Assembly (NCBI GenBank): GCA_012490745.1
Contig: GCA_012490745.1_3925.1
Direction: 5' to 3' (one strand)
DNA length: 64,000 nt
DNA from: a phage
Both the position numbers and the translations under genes were made by a program. Positions 16,082 to 22,438 of this stretch are shown in pieces (the first letter of the stretch is position 1; every line of letters starts with the position of its first letter). Under the pieces are notes generated by a model. It had not been told where the DNA came from. It saw only the letters and a program-made list of their open reading frames with translations, and did no database searches.

Positions 16082-17497
16082 ATGAGCGAGTTATTTAAAC
16101 ATGCGCACCTTCATGCAGGTCGAACTGAAAATGGTGCTGTAAACCATACTTCATCAATGTCTGCTCTTGTAGATTTTTACAAAGCTGCTGGTTCAAGCCG
16201 TAGCAATGTAGAAATCTTACCAGACTTGTTCTACAAAGCTTTGCGTGAGGATGTTGATGTTGCAGTTCGTATTTTACTGCATATGCGAGATGTACGAGAA
16301 GGTATGGGTGAGCGTAAAGCCTTCAGAACTGTTTTGCTTCAAGCGATTGAAGATAAAGTTTTAGAACCTACACAGGTTCTTCGCATTATGGATAAGATTG
16401 CAGAACTTGGTCGTTTTGATGACTTCAAAATCTTCGTAGGTACTCGTTTCGAGACAGATGCCTTCAAACATTTAGAAGCAGCATTACTAGACCATGCAAC
16501 AGCAGGTTTAGCAGCTAAGTGGTTGCCACGAGTAAAACCACGCCACAAACAGTTTGTAAAACGTTTCTGCAAGTTTGCCAACTTGAGTGAGAAAGAGTAC
16601 CGCACACTGTTGTCTGCACTATCTGATACAGTTGAGCAAAAAATCTCTGCTAATGAGTTTGGTAAGATTGATTACAGCAAGATTCCTTCACTTGCTGCTG
16701 CACGTTACCAAAAACTCTTTAACCGTAAAGATGGAGAGCGCTACAAAGCTTACATCGAGTCCTTATCAAAGGGTGAGACTAAGATTAATGCTGGTGCTGT
16801 TTACCCATACGATGTGATTAAATCTGTTAAGTATGGTAATGCAGATGTTGCTAATGAGCAGTGGAAAGCACTACCAAACTGGATGGCAGAGGGTGAAAAC
16901 ATTCTATGTATGTCTGATGTTTCAAGTTCAATGTCTTGGGTGAATTTTGGTTCAATTACTGCTCTTGATATTGGTGTTTCACTTGCATTGTATGTAGCAG
17001 AACGTAATACAGGTTGCTTTAAGAATGAGTTGATGGTTTATTCAACAAACCCTCACTTCATTGAACTGAGTGGTGATTTACGAAACCGTCATCGTCAGGT
17101 AATGCGTCATGTTGAATACGGTTCAACTAACTTACAAGCAGCTTTTGACCGCATTCTTGAGACAGGTAAGAGAAACAACTTGACTCAGAAAGATATGCCA
17201 AGTAAGCTTATCATCTTCTCTGATATGGAGTTCAATCAGGTTGACGGTGCAAATGGTCGTACAAACTTTGAAGCAATTCGTAGTAAGTACAAAAAAGCTG
17301 GATACGAAATGCCACAACTGGTATTCTGGTACTTAGCAAACCGTAGTGGTACTTGCGAAGTGTCTGTTAAGGATAACGGTGTAGCAATGGTATCAGGGTT
17401 CTCTCCAGCCACTTTAAAAGCTCTGCTTGGTGGTGAGAAGTTTGACCCAACCAGCGTAATGCTCAAAGCAGTAATGATTGACCGTTACATCTGGTAA
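16082..17497 (+). CDS. putative vWA/MIDAS-like domain protein (471 aa)
   Basis: Possible MIDAS-like D-x-S-x-S (MSDVSSSMS) followed by hydrophobic beta-strand-like segments and IIFSDMEF. Confidence 0.45.
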   Translation: MSELFKHAHLHAGRTENGAVNHTSSMSALVDFYKAAGSSRSNVEILPDLFYKALREDVDVAVRILLHMRDVREGMGERKAFRTVLLQAIEDKVLEPTQVLRIMDKIAELGRFDDFKIFVGTRFETDAFKHLEAALLDHATAGLAAKWLPRVKPRHKQFVKRFCKFANLSEKEYRTLLSALSDTVEQKISANEFGKIDYSKIPSLAAARYQKLFNRKDGERYKAYIESLSKGETKINAGAVYPYDVIKSVKYGNADVANEQWKALPNWMAEGENILCMSDVSSSMSWVNFGSITALDIGVSLALYVAERNTGCFKNELMVYSTNPHFIELSGDLRNRHRQVMRHVEYGSTNLQAAFDRILETGKRNNLTQKDMPSKLIIFSDMEFNQVDGANGRTNFEAIRSKYKKAGYEMPQLVFWYLANRSGTCEVSVKDNGVAMVSGFSPATLKALLGGEKFDPTSVMLKAVMIDRYIW

Positions 17498-17824: not shown

Positions 17825-17915
17825 GTTTTGACAGAAGACCAATTACAGCAAACTTAATCTTATTCATCTGAAGGTAAATCGGACAAAGAAGAGATTTGGT
17901 CTGGTCATTAAGAAT

Positions 17916-17992: not shown

Positions 17993-18069
17993 ATTTTGCA
18001 GAAGACCGTATTCAGCAACAAAATACTTTTTGCGGATAAAAGAAAAAACACGGTCTGGCAATGTATTAA

Positions 18070-18249: not shown

Positions 18250-18327
18250 GGTTATGTAGTTTAATCTGGTTAAAATACTCCCCTGTCACGGGAGATGATG
18301 AGGGTTCAAATCCCTTCGTAACCGCCA
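18250..18327 (+). tRNA. tRNA-Asp (GTC)
   Basis: Anticodon arm ctccc-ctgtcac-gggag, T-loop ttcaaat, discriminator G. Confidence 0.7.
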
Positions 18328-18643
18328 AATTATAATAAGTATTTCAAAATGATGTTTGAGAGGGCTATTTTAGCCCCTCCCTTAAAGAGTTCTTACGAGT
18401 ATTCTTTAAAGGAGCAGAAGACCAAATTCAGCAAGTACGTATGATATTTTCAAGCCAATTTAATTTTGAAAAAATTTATAAAACTTGGTCTGGCTCAACA
18501 ATTTTACAGAAGACCGTTTACAGCAAAACTTAAACAATCTATTTCTCCGGTAAAGAAAAGGCGAAGGTTCGATTCCTTCACTCGGCAGATGTCGAGTTGG
18601 TGTAATGGTAGCACTTAAGATGATAAACAACGGTCTGGTAATT

Positions 18644-18779
18644 ATCTTTGTAGATAAGTTATTAAGCTTACCTGTGAGTATGCGACCACAAAGGGTGAAA
18701 GGGTAAATTCTAGATTTAAACCCAAAAAGGCACATCGCTACAGACCTTAAGCAAGTCTGGGTAGCTTATCTACAAAGAT
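18644..18779 (+). ncRNA. Candidate structured small RNA: 15-bp perfect inverted repeat (atctttgtagataag / cttatctacaaagat) enclosing 106 nt with internal hairpins
   Basis: Perfect long-range stem plus internal hairpins cagac-cttaagcaa-gtctg and gggt...accc; lies between tRNA genes. Confidence 0.4.
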
Positions 18780-18787
18780 AATTTAAT

Positions 18788-18863
18788 GGAAGTGTAGCAG
18801 AATGGTGATGCGGCAGACTTTTAATCTGACAGGCGATGGGTTCGAATCCCTCCACTTCTACCA
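18788..18863 (+). tRNA. tRNA-Lys (TTT)
   Basis: Acceptor ggaagtg/cacttct, anticodon loop cttttaa, T-loop ttcgaat; paralog of 20023-20098. Confidence 0.6.
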
Positions 18864-18945: not shown

Positions 18946-19021
18946 GCTGGTATAGTTAAGAAGGTTATAACACTCCCCTGATAAGGGAACATCGGTGGTT
19001 CGATTCCACCTACCAGTACCA
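18946..19021 (+). tRNA. tRNA-Ile (GAT)
   Basis: D-arm gtta...taac, anticodon loop ctgataa, T-arm ggtgg-ttcgatt-ccacc. Confidence 0.65.
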
Positions 19022-19029
19022 ATTTCAAT

Positions 19030-19075
19030 AAAGTTGTTGACACTGAGATGTGACTACTTTATAGTAACCTTAGTT
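19030..19075 (+). promoter_or_regulatory. Internal promoter TTGACA-17nt-TATAGT within the tRNA array
   Basis: aaagttgTTGACActgagatgtgactacttTATAGTaacc. Confidence 0.55.
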
Positions 19076-19269
19076 TTCGTTGCGTAGCGTCTATTTTGCA
19101 AATTTAAAATAAATGCAAACGACAATGTTTTTCTGGCAGTAGCTTGATAGGCTAAACACCAGTGAGGTCTTCCAATCCCTCATCAAAGAATTTGGCGTAC
19201 TAGCCCACGGTATGATTAATAAGGTGGGCATCTTTAAGGGCTTTCTAAGAGAGTCTTTAAAGATAATTA

Positions 19270-19351
19270 CGGGGCGTATCTCAGCGGTCTTCTAAACCGC
19301 CGTTAACCGAGTAAGTGGAGTATGCGGGTTCGAGTCCTGCCGCCTCGACCA
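19270..19351 (+). tRNA. atypical tRNA-like gene (candidate Arg-TCT); cloverleaf not resolved
   Basis: Good acceptor cggggcg/cgcctcg and T-arm gcggg-ttcgagt-cctgc; perfect hairpin gcggt-cttctaa-accgc sits where the D-arm should be. Confidence 0.4.
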
Positions 19352-20694: not shown

Positions 20695-21252
20695 ATGAGA
20701 TATTTGAAGTATGCTTCATGGATTTTCTTAGCTTTGTTAGAGCCATTTGCAGCAATCTTAGCAGTTATCTTAGCACCTTTTGTAGTTCCATTCTACAGTG
20801 AGAAGAAAGGACACTTACCTTTCGGGTTCAGATGGATGGAGACATATGACAACCCAATTGATGGTGATGAAGGTCACGTTAAAAGATGGGCTAATATTAG
20901 ATGGATTGGTAAACTAGGTGTCTACATGCAAAGAGTCGGATGGCTCTGGAGAAACAAAGCTTATAACTTCTCTTACCATGTATTAGGAAGAGATGTAAGA
21001 GATGTTACTAAGTGGAAAGGTAATATCAACGTAAGTTCTGACCCCGAAGATAATCAGACAGGTTATCTCCTAATGTGGAACAGTAATGCTTGGGGATTAT
21101 TCGCTTTTATCCCATCAATTAAAATCTTTGGTAAACAGTTTTACTGGAGAATTTATATTGGATGGAAACTTAAAAGTGTTGTCCCAGAAGAAAGAGCATT
21201 CTCAAGGGAAAGAGTTATGTTGGCATTCTTTATTCATCCACTGAGAAAGTAA
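20695..21252 (+). CDS. hypothetical Trp-rich membrane protein (185 aa) embedded in the tRNA array
   Basis: ORF with SD aaGAGG; N-terminal TM helix (WIFLALLEPFAAILAVILAPFVVPF). Confidence 0.55.
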   Translation: MRYLKYASWIFLALLEPFAAILAVILAPFVVPFYSEKKGHLPFGFRWMETYDNPIDGDEGHVKRWANIRWIGKLGVYMQRVGWLWRNKAYNFSYHVLGRDVRDVTKWKGNINVSSDPEDNQTGYLLMWNSNAWGLFAFIPSIKIFGKQFYWRIYIGWKLKSVVPEERAFSRERVMLAFFIHPLRK

Positions 21253-21610: not shown

Positions 21611-21688
21611 TAGTCCAAGTAGCTTATATGGTTAAAGCGCGTGTCTGAAAAACATGAGAAGAGGGTTCAAATCCCACTGGACTACCAA
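21611..21688 (+). tRNA. tRNA-Phe (GAA)
   Basis: Perfect acceptor tagtcca/tggacta, anticodon loop ctgaaaa, T-loop ttcaaat. Confidence 0.65.
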
Positions 21689-21703
21689 TTTCAAAGGTGC
21701 TTA

Positions 21704-22438
21704 ATGAAAGAGATGACAGAACAAGGTAAGGAGATTTTTAATCTCTTAAAAACTGGTAAAGGGTTTTCTAACCCCCTTATTACTGGTGCAGCAGTTCTCG
21801 GTGGAACCGTAGCTGCCTCTACATCACTTGTAAGCTCTATTAGCTCTGTATCAGACCCTACAGTAAAGGATAAGCTTGTTGCTGCTGGACTTACAACAGT
21901 TCTGCTTAACAGCTTTACCACGAGTCTGACAAGCACTACATCAACTACCAAAACACTAACAGATTACGGTCAAAAGTCCATTGATGAGTTTTCATCACGT
22001 ATGCAGGTAGCAAAAGGTTATTCTAATGTTATGGGTGCAGCAGGTGAACAAGTTGGCTGTACACCATTTAGTGGTATTATGGGTGTTGCTACAGAGTATG
22101 GTCAAAAAGCTATTGATACGATTAACAGTACACTAGATAGTGTTAATGGTGTGTTAAGTGACTTACAAGATGCTATTGATAAGGGTCTTGATACTGTTTC
22201 TGATTTAGCTAATCAGGCTGTTAGCAAGATTAATGAAGGTATCTCAAAGATTACAGCTTATGCAGATGAAGTTGTGCAGATGATTGAAGAAGAAGCTGCC
22301 CTTATTGCAGAGTACCTTAAAACGAATATCAATGGGTTCTTAGCAGGTATCTTACCAGACTGGTTTGATGATGCTTGTAAAACTGGTGTGATTGACACTA
22401 TTGCAACACCAGAAATGAAGAACGCATTACAGAAATAA
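21704..22438 (+). CDS. hypothetical Ser/Thr-rich protein (244 aa)
   Basis: The ORF-track start 21641 lies inside tRNA-Phe; ATG 21704 has SD aaaGGtg 5 nt upstream. Confidence 0.5.
   Translation: MKEMTEQGKEIFNLLKTGKGFSNPLITGAAVLGGTVAASTSLVSSISSVSDPTVKDKLVAAGLTTVLLNSFTTSLTSTTSTTKTLTDYGQKSIDEFSSRMQVAKGYSNVMGAAGEQVGCTPFSGIMGVATEYGQKAIDTINSTLDSVNGVLSDLQDAIDKGLDTVSDLANQAVSKINEGISKITAYADEVVQMIEEEAALIAEYLKTNINGFLAGILPDWFDDACKTGVIDTIATPEMKNALQK

What the first reader, a model, noticed from the sequence alone, without database searches (positions are those of the whole stretch)
18540..18625. tRNA halves in permuted order inside the tRNA array
A T-arm plus 3' acceptor strand (gaagg-ttcgatt-ccttc-actcggc, about 18562-18588) is followed 4 nt later by a 5' acceptor strand plus D-arm-like sequence (gtcgagt-tg-gtgtaatggtagcac). 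The two acceptor strands are complementary over 7 bp with one G-U, but in the wrong order for a normal gene and with no CCA. This could be a circularly permuted tRNA, a tRNA disrupted by rearrangement, or a tRNA-like stable RNA.
Basis: seen in the sequence. Interest (0 to 1): 0.6.

Follow-up and report, generated by a model that had tools for sequence, protein, structure and literature searches.

The report
Phage Y RNA that mimics tRNA
The "tRNA halves in the wrong order" are the tRNA-shaped core of a conserved, unannotated small RNA that very probably partners the phage's own Ro60-like RNA-binding protein encoded 1 kb upstream, which makes it a new variant of the bacterial Y RNAs.

Summary
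T arm 18563-18579, 3' acceptor strand 18580-18586, loop AGAU, 5' acceptor strand 18591-18597 and D arm 18600-18614 lie in permuted order. ARAGORN and Rfam call no tRNA or tmRNA there.

It is not debris. In other Ounavirinae genera the acceptor-like stem changes sequence but keeps pairing. The same layout recurs in unrelated viral contigs: closing helix, CAGCAA loop, variable arm, T arm, closed acceptor hairpin, D arm. On 21 sequences 91.9% of cells pair, against 40-45% in slid controls, and 21 of 24 pairs show compensatory changes.

These RNAs lie on the strand of, and mostly within 300 nt of, a DUF2828/DUF7788 gene. In the window this is ORF 16082-17497, whose AlphaFold model matches Ro60 over its full length. 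All 124 covariance-model hits are on the gene's strand.

The topology is that of YrlA-type Y RNAs, which have been described as circularly permuted tRNAs. However, the Rfam YrlA model does not hit it, and the expected GNCGAA motif is replaced by CAGCAA.

The window holds four modules; only one (18504-18641) carries the tRNA-like insert.

Verdict: a new variant of a known kind. Protein binding and function are inferred.

The parts
16082..17497 (+). Gene for the Ro60-like protein (471 aa; Pfam DUF2828 + DUF7788; PHROG 850 'RNA-binding protein'). It is the presumed protein partner of the RNA modules.
   Evidence: Pfam. AlphaFold2 model with pLDDT 90. In Foldseek against the PDB the top 10 hits are all Ro60/TROVE structures aligned over the full length (TM 0.55-0.65, E 6e-8 to 7e-7). 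PHROG 850 also holds the TROVE-type Ro60 of mycobacteriophage Bxz1.
17829..17907 (+). Short module M1, between tRNA-Glu and tRNA-Met. Outer helix tgac/gtca, internal loop AGA/G, inner helix AGACCAA (17836-42) with TTGGTCT (17896-902), CAGCAA at 17846-51. No tRNA-like insert.
   Evidence: Exact match to AGAAGACCNNNNNCAGCAA at 17833; sequence; homologous module hit by R1 in relatives (L001-L005).
17996..18061 (+). Short module M2, between tRNA-Met and tRNA-Asn. Outer helix ttgc/gcaa, AGA/G loop, inner helix AGACCGT (18003-09) with ACGGTCT (18050-56), CAGCAA at 18013-18.
   Evidence: Pattern match at 18000; R1 hit 17999-18062, 32.1 bits, E 0.007.
18412..18496 (+). Short module M3. Outer helix gagc/gctc, AGA/G loop, inner helix AGACCAA (18419-25) with TTGGTCT (18485-91), CAGCAA at 18429-34.
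   Evidence: Pattern match at 18416; the RNAalifold consensus recovers both helices in 6 Ounavirinae.
18504..18641 (+). Long module M4, the YrlA-like Y RNA that contains the finding. Outer helix ttac (18504-07) with gtaa (18638-41); internal loop AGA (18508-10) / G (18637).
   Evidence: R1 102.8 bits and R2 103 bits. The MFE fold of this stretch alone gives exactly this architecture. Covariation.
18511..18526 (+). 5' strand of the inner closing helix P1 (AGACCGTT, 18511-18518) followed by the conserved loop motif ta-CAGCAA (18521-18526). This is the presumed protein-binding module.
   Evidence: P1 pairs with 18629-18636. 7 of its 8 pairs show changes on both sides across 21 sequences, 92.9% paired. 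C.GCA is invariant in the family alignments.
18542..18558 (+). V arm, which looks like an anticodon arm: stem TTTCT/AGAAA, 7-nt loop CCGGTAA ('anticodon' GGU), followed by the 4-nt linker AGGC.
   Evidence: Rfam tRNA partial alignment; ARAGORN calls tRNA-Thr(ggt) on the re-ordered sequence. Not conserved in Moogle or in the metagenomic members.
18563..18579 (+). T arm (GAAGG / TTCGATT / CCTTC).
   Evidence: GGTTCGAnTCC is invariant or nearly so in all 21 aligned members; the stem is 100% paired with 3 covarying pairs.
18580..18597 (+). Acceptor-like stem-loop (AS): ACTCGGC / AGAT / GTCGAGT, 7 bp with one U.G, closed by a 4-nt loop.
   Evidence: All 7 pairs show changes on both sides. Within Ounavirinae the stem is ACTCGGC/GTCGAGT, ACACG/CGTGT or ACCCTTC/GAAGGGT.
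18598..18614 (+). TG linker (tRNA positions 8-9) and D arm (GTGT / AATGGTA / GCAC), with A14, G18 G19 and A21 equivalents.
   Evidence: The family consensus keeps t..g...A....tGG.tA; the 4 D-stem pairs all covary.
18629..18636 (+). 3' strand of the closing helix P1 (AACGGTCT), followed by the conserved G and (T/A)AA.
18640..18786 (+). Structured 3' domain up to tRNA-Lys. A long helix (18640-18658 with 18766-18784) encloses a mini-module CAGACC-TTAAGCAA-GTCTGG (18741-18760). Whether it belongs to the same RNA is uncertain.
   Evidence: RNAalifold consensus with 9 compensatory pairs in 6 sequences. Two sequence versions exist among relatives.

Best explanation
The finding is the tRNA-like effector domain of a phage-encoded Y RNA of the YrlA type.

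Production (inferred): the RNA (about 18504-18641) is made as part of the transcript that carries the tRNA array downstream of the Ro60-like gene. It is presumably released by the RNase P/RNase Z/RNase E processing that frees the neighbouring tRNAs.

Fold (shown): a bulged closing helix is followed on the 5' strand by a conserved CAGCAA loop. From that base rises a complete tRNA-shaped domain: anticodon-like arm, T arm, 7-bp acceptor-like hairpin and D arm. The RNA chain enters and leaves between the D arm and the anticodon-like arm, so the gene reads as a circularly permuted tRNA.

Protein partner (inferred from gene-RNA linkage and from analogy with Ro60/Y RNA): the helix plus CAGCAA module is the docking site for the phage Ro60 homologue (ORF 16082-17497). 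This module recurs four times in the window and next to DUF2828 genes in many unrelated phages.

Role of the tRNA-like domain (inferred): its conserved T-loop/D-loop elbow and 12-bp acceptor/T stack present a tRNA look-alike to a tRNA-recognising host or phage factor. The Y RNA would thereby tether or gate the Ro60-like ring, as Y RNAs do in the Ro60/Y RNA/PNPase complex.

Processing of the acceptor loop (inferred): in some members the loop encodes N-CCA, so RNase P cleavage and a CCA end, as shown for M. smegmatis YrlA, are likely there. For the window copy (loop AGAU) this is open.

Biological role (weakest step): RNA surveillance or counter-defence during infection. The orthologous protein of Felixounavirus Bas63, gp130, was reported to counter the ppl defence system.
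For: (1) Structure and conservation. The acceptor-like stem covaries within Ounavirinae. On 21 sequences 91.9% of cells pair, against 40-45% when partners are slid; 21 of 24 pairs change on both sides; the covariation score is 0.773 against 0.21 in shuffles, with 0 of 500 shuffles reaching it. The nucleotides that build the tRNA tertiary fold are conserved: U8, A14, G18, G19, A21, G53, T54, T55, C56, A58, C61.

(2) Linkage to the protein. 124 of 124 R1 hits (E<=1) and 47 of 47 R2 hits (E<=0.01) lie on the DUF2828 gene's strand. 31 of 45 significant hits in 75 diverse loci lie within 300 nt of the gene ends.

(3) The protein is a Ro60 homologue. Foldseek's top 10 PDB hits are all Ro60, including phage phiLo Ro60, aligned over the full length. 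It shares PHROG 850 with the TROVE-type Ro60 of Bxz1. There is a weak profile hit to the Ro60 vWA MIDAS region.

(4) Same topology as YrlA. Published YrlA runs 5' motif - V - T - AS - D (PMC4201824). In Bxz1 the Rfam YrlA model and my model both hit the same T-AS-D core upstream of the Ro60 gene.

(5) The helix plus CAGCAA module occurs 4 times in the window with 0 mismatches, all on the + strand within the first 900 nt of the array, and its 4-bp outer helix covaries among the copies.

(6) The authors of the Bas63 study noted the Ro60-like fold of gp130 and guessed that 'some tRNA genes ... are possibly Y RNAs' (10.1101/2024.10.10.617714).

(7) N-CCA follows the 7-bp stem in 5 of 13 members (L051 read). 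[quoted passage not shown]
Against: There is no expression, processing or binding data for this RNA; all of that is inferred.

The Rfam YrlA model (RF02553) gives no hit on the window even at E<=10. The published Ro-binding motif GNCGAAN0-1G is absent from the expected position. A GGCGAAG at 18560-18566 is not conserved.

The protein does not match Pfam TROVE, and its sequence similarity to canonical Ro60 is marginal (hhalign probability 63%).

The covariation was counted on a model-fitted alignment, which favours the model. The gap to the slid controls is nevertheless very large.

Thermodynamic stability of the module alone is unremarkable (z = -1.55).

Co-localisation with tRNA arrays means a purely tRNA-processing role cannot be excluded.
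Confidence: 0.78

Rival explanations
1. Dead remnants: the 3' part of one tRNA gene and the 5' part of the next copy, left by deletions in a tandem pair. On this reading there is no function and the complementarity is inherited from identical acceptor stems.
For: Tandem tRNAs do give this signature. My scanner and the covariance model picked up Lys-Lys and Glu-Arg junctions as weak false positives (L012:8435, L051:1012). Chen et al. warn of the same artefact. The spacer of 4 nt is typical of this array.
Against: The acceptor stem has changed on both strands in register in three versions within Ounavirinae, and in every metagenomic member. The flanks are not tRNA remnants; they are the helix plus CAGCAA module shared with the copies that have no tRNA-like insert. 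Relatives in three genera have the same permuted element, never an intact tRNA, at this position. Some members close the stem with GNRA or UNCG tetraloops.
Confidence: 0.02
2. A working permuted or split tRNA. RNase P and 3' trimming plus CCA addition would open the acceptor loop and give a two-piece tRNA-Thr(GGU), held together by the acceptor stem and helix P1, which is charged and used in translation.
For: The re-ordered sequence is called tRNA-Thr(ggt) by ARAGORN. One GenBank record (phage REP5) even annotates a 131-nt tRNA-Thr GGT here. The 7-bp acceptor plus 5-bp T stack is kept in 12 of 16 distinct members, and 5 members encode N-CCA. The array otherwise has only tRNA-Thr(tgt). M. smegmatis YrlA is cleaved by RNase P and receives CCA.
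Against: The window copy has C, not U, at position 33 of the loop. The anticodon-like arm is absent or different in Moogle and in most metagenomic members, and some members lack the acceptor stem altogether (L038, L024). SUSP2, ESh19, L077b and L032 close the stem with UACG, GAAA or GUAA tetraloops. No CCA is encoded in the window, although the phage's real tRNAs encode it. The family-wide conserved parts are the elbow and the CAGCAA module, not the anticodon.
Confidence: 0.07
3. A cis-acting processing signal. On this reading the tRNA-like fold only serves as an entry site for RNase P/RNase Z to cut the long array transcript (like mascRNA-type tRNA-like ends), and the repeated helix plus CAGCAA elements are RNase sites or spacers that do not depend on the Ro60-like protein.
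For: Modules M1 and M2 exactly fill tRNA-tRNA gaps, as does L012:7102-7229. Nearly all loci examined also carry tRNA genes.
Against: In most diverse loci the modules abut the DUF2828 gene itself, upstream or downstream, rather than tRNAs (31 of 45 within 300 nt). Examples are L056:5399-5641 and L077:5382-6115, where ARAGORN finds no tRNA nearby. An array of real tRNAs already provides processing sites, so an extra mimic would be redundant.
Confidence: 0.1
4. A two-piece (circularly permuted) tmRNA gene: acceptor piece first, coding piece second.
For: The gene order T arm - 3' acceptor - spacer - 5' acceptor is that of permuted ssrA genes. Rfam gives weak permuted-tmRNA and tmRNA matches elsewhere in the array (18963-19147 at 28.8 bits; 19079-19268 at 15.4 bits; both below the threshold of 47).
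Against: Rfam and ARAGORN tmRNA searches find nothing at the element. There is no G3:U70 pair (the pair is C3-G70 in the window). A full D arm is present, unlike tmRNA. No tag reading frame or pseudoknots follow, since the RNA closes with helix P1 15 nt after the D arm.
Confidence: 0.01

Closest known systems
YrlA RNAs (Rfam RF02553): tRNA-mimicking Y RNAs bound by bacterial Ro60 (Rsr) in Salmonella Typhimurium, Mycobacterium smegmatis and mycobacteriophages (Chen et al. 2014, PMC4201824; Wang et al. 2018, 10.1101/312249)
   Same: The module order is the same: terminal stem with a conserved loop motif on the 5' strand, then V, T arm, closed acceptor-like hairpin, UA/UG linker, D arm, and the 3' strand. 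The T-loop/D-loop elbow nucleotides are conserved. It is encoded within 4 kb of, and on the same strand as, a Ro60-fold gene. It occurs together with shorter YrlB-like partners. [quoted passage not shown] It lies next to tRNA genes.
   Different: The Rfam YrlA model does not detect it, and my model sees only the tRNA core of Bxz1 YrlA (14.9 bits). The loop motif is CAGCAA instead of GNCGAAN0-1G. The D and T stem sequences vary freely, whereas they are conserved in YrlA. The acceptor-like stem is mostly exactly 7 bp. The Ounavirinae copy also has an anticodon-like arm, so a whole cloverleaf is mimicked. The partner protein is DUF2828/DUF7788, not Pfam TROVE.
Yrl1/Yrl2 of Thermus phage phiLo with phage Ro60 (PMC12135203; PDB 9KOP, 9L5Y)
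   Same: Phage-encoded Ro60-fold protein with two or more adjacent Y-like RNAs that have a stem - internal loop - stem layout. phiLo Ro60 is among the best structural matches of the window protein.
   Different: The phiLo RNAs were identified by a CGAA motif, and the paper's text contains no mention of a tRNA-like domain (0 occurrences of 'tRNA-like'). The phiLo protein was identified as a Ro60 homologue by sequence (UniProt search), unlike the DUF2828 protein here.
Two-piece (circularly permuted) tmRNA genes of alpha-proteobacteria, cyanobacteria and some beta-proteobacteria
   Same: Permuted gene order, with the T arm and 3' acceptor strand before the 5' acceptor strand; in some family members an encoded CCA is followed by a short spacer.
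   Different: No alanine identity pair, no tag reading frame, no pseudoknots; a full D arm is present; no match to tmRNA models.
Circularly permuted tRNA genes of the red alga Cyanidioschyzon merolae (from my own knowledge)
   Same: The 3' half of a tRNA is encoded upstream of the 5' half, separated by a few nucleotides.
   Different: Those genes yield ordinary decoding tRNAs through a circular intermediate made by the archaeal/eukaryotic splicing endonuclease, an enzyme absent from E. coli and Salmonella. Here the chain ends are held in a conserved protein-binding helix, and the anticodon arm is dispensable in relatives.

Membership tests
YrlA-type Y RNA | Order T arm - acceptor-like stem-loop - D arm, with the tRNA tertiary-interaction nucleotides conserved | tested here: met
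   T loop TTCGAnn, G53-C61, U8, A14, G18, G19 and A21 equivalents are conserved; all helices covary.
YrlA-type Y RNA | Encoded within about 4 kb of, and on the same strand as, a Ro60 orthologue | tested here: met
   The element lies 1.0 kb downstream of ORF 16082-17497 on the + strand. The protein has a Ro60 fold and is in PHROG 850 together with Bxz1 Ro60. All covariance-model hits are on the gene's strand. Caveat: the protein is DUF2828, not Pfam TROVE.
YrlA-type Y RNA | GNCGAAN0-1G motif near the 5' end (putative Ro60 contact) | tested here: not met
   The corresponding position carries (T)T(T/A)CAGCAA. The only GGCGAAG (18560-18566) sits at the V/T junction and is not conserved.
YrlA-type Y RNA | Match to the Rfam RF02553 covariance model (gathering score 69 bits) | tested here: not met
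   No hit at E<=10 on 18328-18790. As a positive control the model hits Bxz1 at 32.5 bits.
YrlA-type Y RNA | Physical binding to Ro60/Rsr; psi55 and dihydrouridine modification by TruB and DusA | not testable with these tools
   Requires immunoprecipitation, gel-shift assays and modification mapping.
Ro60 / TROVE protein family (the partner protein) | Ring of HEAT-like repeats followed by a vWA domain with a MIDAS motif | tested here: met
   AF2 model with pLDDT 90. Full-length Foldseek matches to 1YVP, 2I91, 2NVO, 9KOP and 9L5Y. The D-x-S-x-S motif aligns with the Ro60 MIDAS region.
Ro60 / TROVE protein family (the partner protein) | Match to Pfam TROVE (PF05731) / vWA_Ro60 (PF25045) | tested here: not met
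   Only DUF2828 and DUF7788 are matched, whereas Bxz1 gp220 matches TROVE + vWA_Ro60.
tRNA gene (canonical) | Collinear cloverleaf detectable by ARAGORN or by Rfam RF00005 at or above 29 bits | tested here: not met
   Only a 22-bit partial match is found.
Permuted (two-piece) tmRNA | G3:U70 alanine identity pair, tag reading frame, pseudoknots, model match | tested here: not met
   The pair is C3-G70. No tmRNA call comes from ARAGORN -m or from Rfam at the element.
Permuted decoding tRNA | Conserved anticodon arm with U33 and a processed, chargeable CCA end | tested here: inconclusive
   An anticodon-like arm (GGU) is present in Felixounavirus, Suspvirus and some Mooglevirus, but with C33 in the window and absent in Moogle and most other members. 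N-CCA is encoded in 5 of 13 members but not in the window. Charging cannot be tested.

The most novel reading that the evidence does not exclude
The Ounavirinae element is a complete tRNA cloverleaf grafted onto a Ro60-binding stem. [quoted passage not shown] The resulting RNP would act in the phage-host conflict over tRNAs, either as a decoy or sensor for tRNA-targeting defence nucleases or as a device that brings an exoribonuclease or repair enzyme to damaged tRNAs. This would explain why the gene heads the tRNA array and why Bas63 gp130 counters a defence system. More broadly, DUF2828 proteins plus CAGCAA-module RNAs would form a second, phage-wide lineage of Ro60/Y RNA particles that has gone unrecognised, with at least 589 loci in IMG/VR.
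Probability: 0.15. Interest if true: 0.85.

Novelty: new variant of a known kind. Interest (0 to 1): 0.62.

Why it matters
Felix O1-like phages are classical typing and therapy phages, yet this 460-nt stretch of their tRNA array is unannotated or mis-annotated. Records show hypothetical ORFs there, and one shows a 131-nt 'tRNA-Thr'.

The analysis gives a concrete candidate for the Y RNAs that a 2024 preprint could only guess at for the Ro60-like anti-defence protein gp130 of Bas63.

It also defines a sequence and structure signature (bulged helix + CAGCAA + optional tRNA mimic) that links a large phage protein family of unknown function (DUF2828/DUF7788) to Ro60/Y RNA biology. This makes several things directly testable: what a phage Ro60 particle does, what recognises the tRNA-like elbow (still unknown even for bacterial YrlA), and whether Y RNAs arose from tRNAs by circular permutation.

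The Ounavirinae copy, with all four arms, looks like an intermediate in that proposed origin.

Tried and rejected
1. ARAGORN in default, intron, tmRNA and low-threshold modes on 18330-18790 found nothing.

2. Rfam at permissive thresholds gave only a 22-bit partial tRNA hit; there was no YrlA, tmRNA or other family.

3. ORF reading: only short overlapping ORFs of at most 91 aa on both strands, none convincing. Annotated 'hypothetical proteins' in some records are probably artefacts.

4. Internal promoter: none convincing in 18330-18790. The 'promoter' in the AYO145A record lies at the tRNA-Asp end.

5. PDB sequence searches with the protein or its profile gave only a marginal Ro60 vWA hit. A fold search was needed.

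6. A simple regex for 'helix + C[AC]GCA + complementary strand' was too permissive: 191 hits on the + strand against 124 on the - strand. I dropped it in favour of the covariance model.

7. Reverse test from RNA to protein, with the pattern AAAGAATNNNTTYCAGCAA in IMG/VR, was uninformative. The exact pattern occurs 0 times in the known loci. The 120 hits lack a pairing partner and none has a DUF2828 gene, so they are chance matches.

8. I looked for a recent tRNA ancestor among the 25 phage tRNAs and found none closer than any other tRNA pair.

9. I guessed the accession of Bas63 to confirm orthology of gp130; the guess was wrong, so orthology rests on synteny and genus.

10. The Annual Review on bacterial Ro60 (PMC10870794) is not held.
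Full report
WHAT IS THERE

The window is a Felixounavirus genome: the interval 18330-18790 is 100% identical to phages KhF3 and XTG1. The finding lies in a 460-nt gap between tRNA-Asp (18250-18327) and tRNA-Lys (18788-18863), inside a 25-gene tRNA array on the + strand.

- T arm 18563-18579
- 3' acceptor strand ACTCGGC 18580-18586
- AGAT 18587-18590
- 5' acceptor strand GTCGAGT 18591-18597
- TG 18598-18599
- D arm 18600-18614

The two acceptor strands pair over 7 bp with one U.G, and no CCA follows. ARAGORN calls nothing here in any mode, including intron, tmRNA and low-threshold modes. Rfam gives only a 22-bit partial tRNA match over 18530-18580.

That partial match reveals an anticodon-like arm just upstream: stem TTTCT/AGAAA with loop CCGGTAA, at 18542-18558. 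The whole tRNA-like domain is enclosed by a helix, AGACCGTT (18511-18518) with AACGGTCT (18629-18636). A second 4-bp helix (18504-07 with 18638-41) lies beyond an asymmetric AGA/G internal loop. The minimum-free-energy fold of 18504-18641 alone reproduces exactly this architecture.

IT IS A CONSERVED STRUCTURED RNA, NOT DEBRIS

The Asp-Lys interval is present in 252 phage records, including the genera Suspvirus and Mooglevirus. In an alignment of six of them the acceptor-like stem has three versions that all keep pairing:
- ACTCGGC/GTCGAGT with loop AGAT (window, SPJ41)
- ACACG/CGTGT around a UACG-type loop (SUSP2, ESh19, KMM2)
- ACCCTTC/GAAGGGT with loop GCCAAACA (Moogle)

A decayed junction of two tRNA genes would not do this.

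I then collected 80 IMG/VR loci that encode relatives (about 40% identity) of the upstream ORF. I scanned them with my own search for 'T arm + complementary strands + D arm'. The same permuted element turned up in L018, L020, L022, L027, L032, L056 (twice), L077 (three times) and L082, at places where ARAGORN sees no tRNA.

All of these share two further features that I had not searched for. Each has a closing helix of different sequence in every case. On the 5' strand, that helix is followed immediately by (T)TYCAGCAA.

A covariance model built from 15 sequences (R1) found 124 matches with E<=1 in 81 sources, all on the + strand, which is the strand of the protein gene. A rebuilt model (R2) found 47 with E<=0.01, again all on the + strand.

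On the 21 best full-length members:
- 91.9% of cells form standard pairs, against 40-45% when the 3' partners are slid by 1-3 columns.
- 21 of 24 pairs change on both sides.
- The covariation score is 0.773, against 0.21 in shuffles (0 of 500 shuffles reach it).
- Each of the four helices (closing helix, T, acceptor-like, D) is supported.

The alignment was fitted to the model, which favours it, but the margin is very large.

The nucleotides that build the tRNA elbow and core are conserved across the family: U8, A14, G18, G19, A21, G53, T54, T55, C56, A58, C61.

THE PARTNER PROTEIN

ORF 16082-17497 (471 aa) lies 1 kb upstream on the same strand. It matches Pfam DUF2828 and DUF7788, not TROVE. 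Its AlphaFold2 model (pLDDT 90) matches Ro60 structures over the full length. The ten best PDB hits are all Ro60: Xenopus and human Ro60, Deinococcus Rsr and Thermus phage phiLo Ro60, with TM 0.44-0.65 and E 6e-8 to 7e-7. vWA domains come only after these.

PHROG 850 ('RNA-binding protein') contains both this protein and the TROVE-type Ro60 of mycobacteriophage Bxz1. Direct sequence similarity to canonical Ro60 is marginal.

[quoted passage not shown] Orthology of gp130 with the window ORF is inferred from genus and synteny.

In the 75 diverse loci, 31 of 45 significant RNA hits lie within 300 nt of the ends of the protein gene, upstream or downstream.

COMPARISON WITH KNOWN Y RNAs

Bacterial YrlA RNAs are described as a 5' GNCGAAN0-1G motif, V arm, T arm, closed acceptor-like stem-loop and D arm. 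They are encoded within 4 kb of Ro60 on the same strand, often next to tRNAs, and are accompanied by shorter YrlB RNAs (PMC4201824). [quoted passage not shown] The topology here is the same.

As a positive control, Rfam's YrlA model hits Bxz1 just upstream of its Ro60 gene (L087:4980-5056, 32.5 bits). My model hits the same tRNA-like core there weakly (14.9 bits).

The window element nevertheless fails two membership tests. RF02553 gives no hit even at E<=10. The GNCGAA motif is replaced by CAGCAA at the corresponding position. I therefore file it as working like a YrlA but belonging to a distinct, undescribed lineage that goes with the DUF2828 branch of Ro60-fold proteins. Nothing in Rfam 15 or in the searchable literature describes it.

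MORE THAN ONE MODULE

The 14-base pattern AGAAGACC-N5-CAGCAA occurs four times in the window with no mismatch, all on the + strand, at 17833, 18000, 18416 and 18508. Each is followed 45-110 nt later by the complementary strand ...GGTCT-G-, and by an outer 4-bp helix that differs between copies: TGAC/GTCA, TTGC/GCAA, GAGC/GCTC, TTAC/GTAA.

Modules M1 (17829-17907) and M2 (17996-18061) fill tRNA-tRNA gaps. M3 (18412-18496) directly precedes M4 (18504-18641). Only M4 has the tRNA-like insert. This is the YrlA/YrlB pattern.

Tandem arrays of short and long modules are also seen in L056 and L077. The rest of the Asp-Lys interval is also conserved and structured but unexplained: two invariant hairpins at 18356-18411, and a long-helix domain at 18640-18786 containing a mini-module CAGACC-TTAAGCAA-GTCTGG.

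HOW FAITHFUL THE tRNA MIMIC IS

If the parts of M4 are re-ordered (5' acceptor, D arm, V arm, linker, T arm, 3' acceptor), ARAGORN calls a tRNA-Thr(GGU). One GenBank record (REP5) annotates a 131-nt tRNA-Thr GGT across part of the element.

The anticodon-like arm is not conserved, however. Moogle and most metagenomic members lack it, and the window has C at position 33.

The acceptor-like stem is exactly 7 bp in 12 of 16 distinct members. Five of the 13 seven-bp members have N-CCA directly after the 3' strand: Moogle GCCA, L056b GCCA, L077a ACCA, L077c CCCA, L051 ACCA. Others have GAAA, GUAA or UACG tetraloops. My rough estimate of the chance of CCA at that position is about 0.011 per sequence, which makes five of 13 very unlikely by chance (about 2e-7). 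The three L077 copies are paralogues and so are not independent.

Some members therefore look built to be opened by RNase P and to end in CCA, as shown for M. smegmatis YrlA, and others look built to stay closed. The window copy (loop AGAU, discriminator-like A, no CCA) is undecided.

MECHANISM, WITH STATUS OF EACH STEP

Shown:
- The fold, its conservation and covariation.
- The strand and distance linkage to a Ro60-fold gene.
- The repetition of the helix/CAGCAA module.

Inferred from the Ro60/Y RNA precedent:
- The Ro60-like protein binds the bulged helix and the CAGCAA loop.
- The tRNA-like domain recruits a tRNA-recognising factor, or gates the ring.

Inferred from context:
- The modules are released from the array transcript by tRNA processing.
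- The particle acts in RNA surveillance or counter-defence.

RIVALS

- Dead tRNA fragments: rejected by covariation.
- A decoding permuted tRNA-Thr: not excluded for the Ounavirinae copy but not supported family-wide.
- A pure processing signal: weakened by modules that abut the protein gene where no tRNA is near.
- Permuted tmRNA: its defining features are not met.

VERDICT

The best explanation is a new variant of YrlA-type Y RNA paired with a divergent phage Ro60. Confidence is about 0.78 for that identity and much lower for the downstream function.

Noticed in passing
window 17829-17907, 17996-18061, 18412-18496: Three further copies of the bulged-helix + CAGCAA module without a tRNA-like insert. 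They are interleaved with tRNA-Glu, Met, Asn and Asp, and their outer 4-bp helices covary between copies.
   Followed up: yes
window 18356-18411: Two hairpins (GAGAGGGC...GCCCCTC and CCTTAAAGAGT...ATTCTTTAAAGG) that are invariant across three Ounavirinae genera, directly upstream of module M3. No function assigned.
   Followed up: partly
window 18640-18786: A structured domain closed by a helix of about 19-24 bp with compensatory changes. It contains a mini-module CAGACC-TTAAGCAA-GTCTGG (18741-18760). Felixounaviruses carry one of two divergent versions of its interior, and many relatives match the query only up to about 18653.
   Followed up: partly
window 19270-19351: An odd tRNA-Arg(UCU)-like gene: acceptor stem with a G3.U70 pair, only 7 nt where the D arm should be, and a 23-nt extra region before the T arm. 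Rfam tRNA scores 31.7 bits but ARAGORN is silent. Relatives annotate tRNA-Arg here.
   Followed up: no
window 18963-19268 and 19037-19065: Sub-threshold Rfam matches to permuted tmRNA (28.8 bits) and tmRNA (15.4 bits) downstream of tRNA-Ile, and a near-consensus promoter-like site (TTGACA-17-TATAGT) inside the array. These are probably chance matches seeded by the tRNA-Ile T arm.
   Followed up: no
L209 399-529 (Escherichia phage REP5, OQ174504.1): The GenBank record annotates a 131-nt 'tRNA-Thr GGT' that spans part of module M3 and the V and T arms of the element. This is an annotation artefact caused by the tRNA mimic.
   Followed up: partly
L003 1400-1455 (Moogle); L056 5563-5618; L077 5843-5900 and 8527-8582; L051 5418-5550: In these relatives the loop of the 7-bp acceptor-like stem begins with N-CCA, as in a tRNA precursor. 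Other relatives have GNRA or UNCG tetraloops (L077 6039-6088, L032 8411-8462, SUSP2).
   Followed up: partly
L038 3785-3903, L024 1528-1640: Family members in which the T arm is followed almost directly by the D arm, with no acceptor-like stem. This suggests that the T/D elbow is the essential part.
   Followed up: no
L001 689-1117 (Salmonella phage SPJ41): An HNH homing endonuclease gene sits in the array just upstream of the Asp-Lys interval in this relative, in place of part of the tRNA set.
   Followed up: no
window 20695-21252 and 21641-22438: Two protein-coding ORFs (185 aa, hydrophobic N-terminus; 265 aa) are embedded in the tRNA array on the same strand.
   Followed up: no
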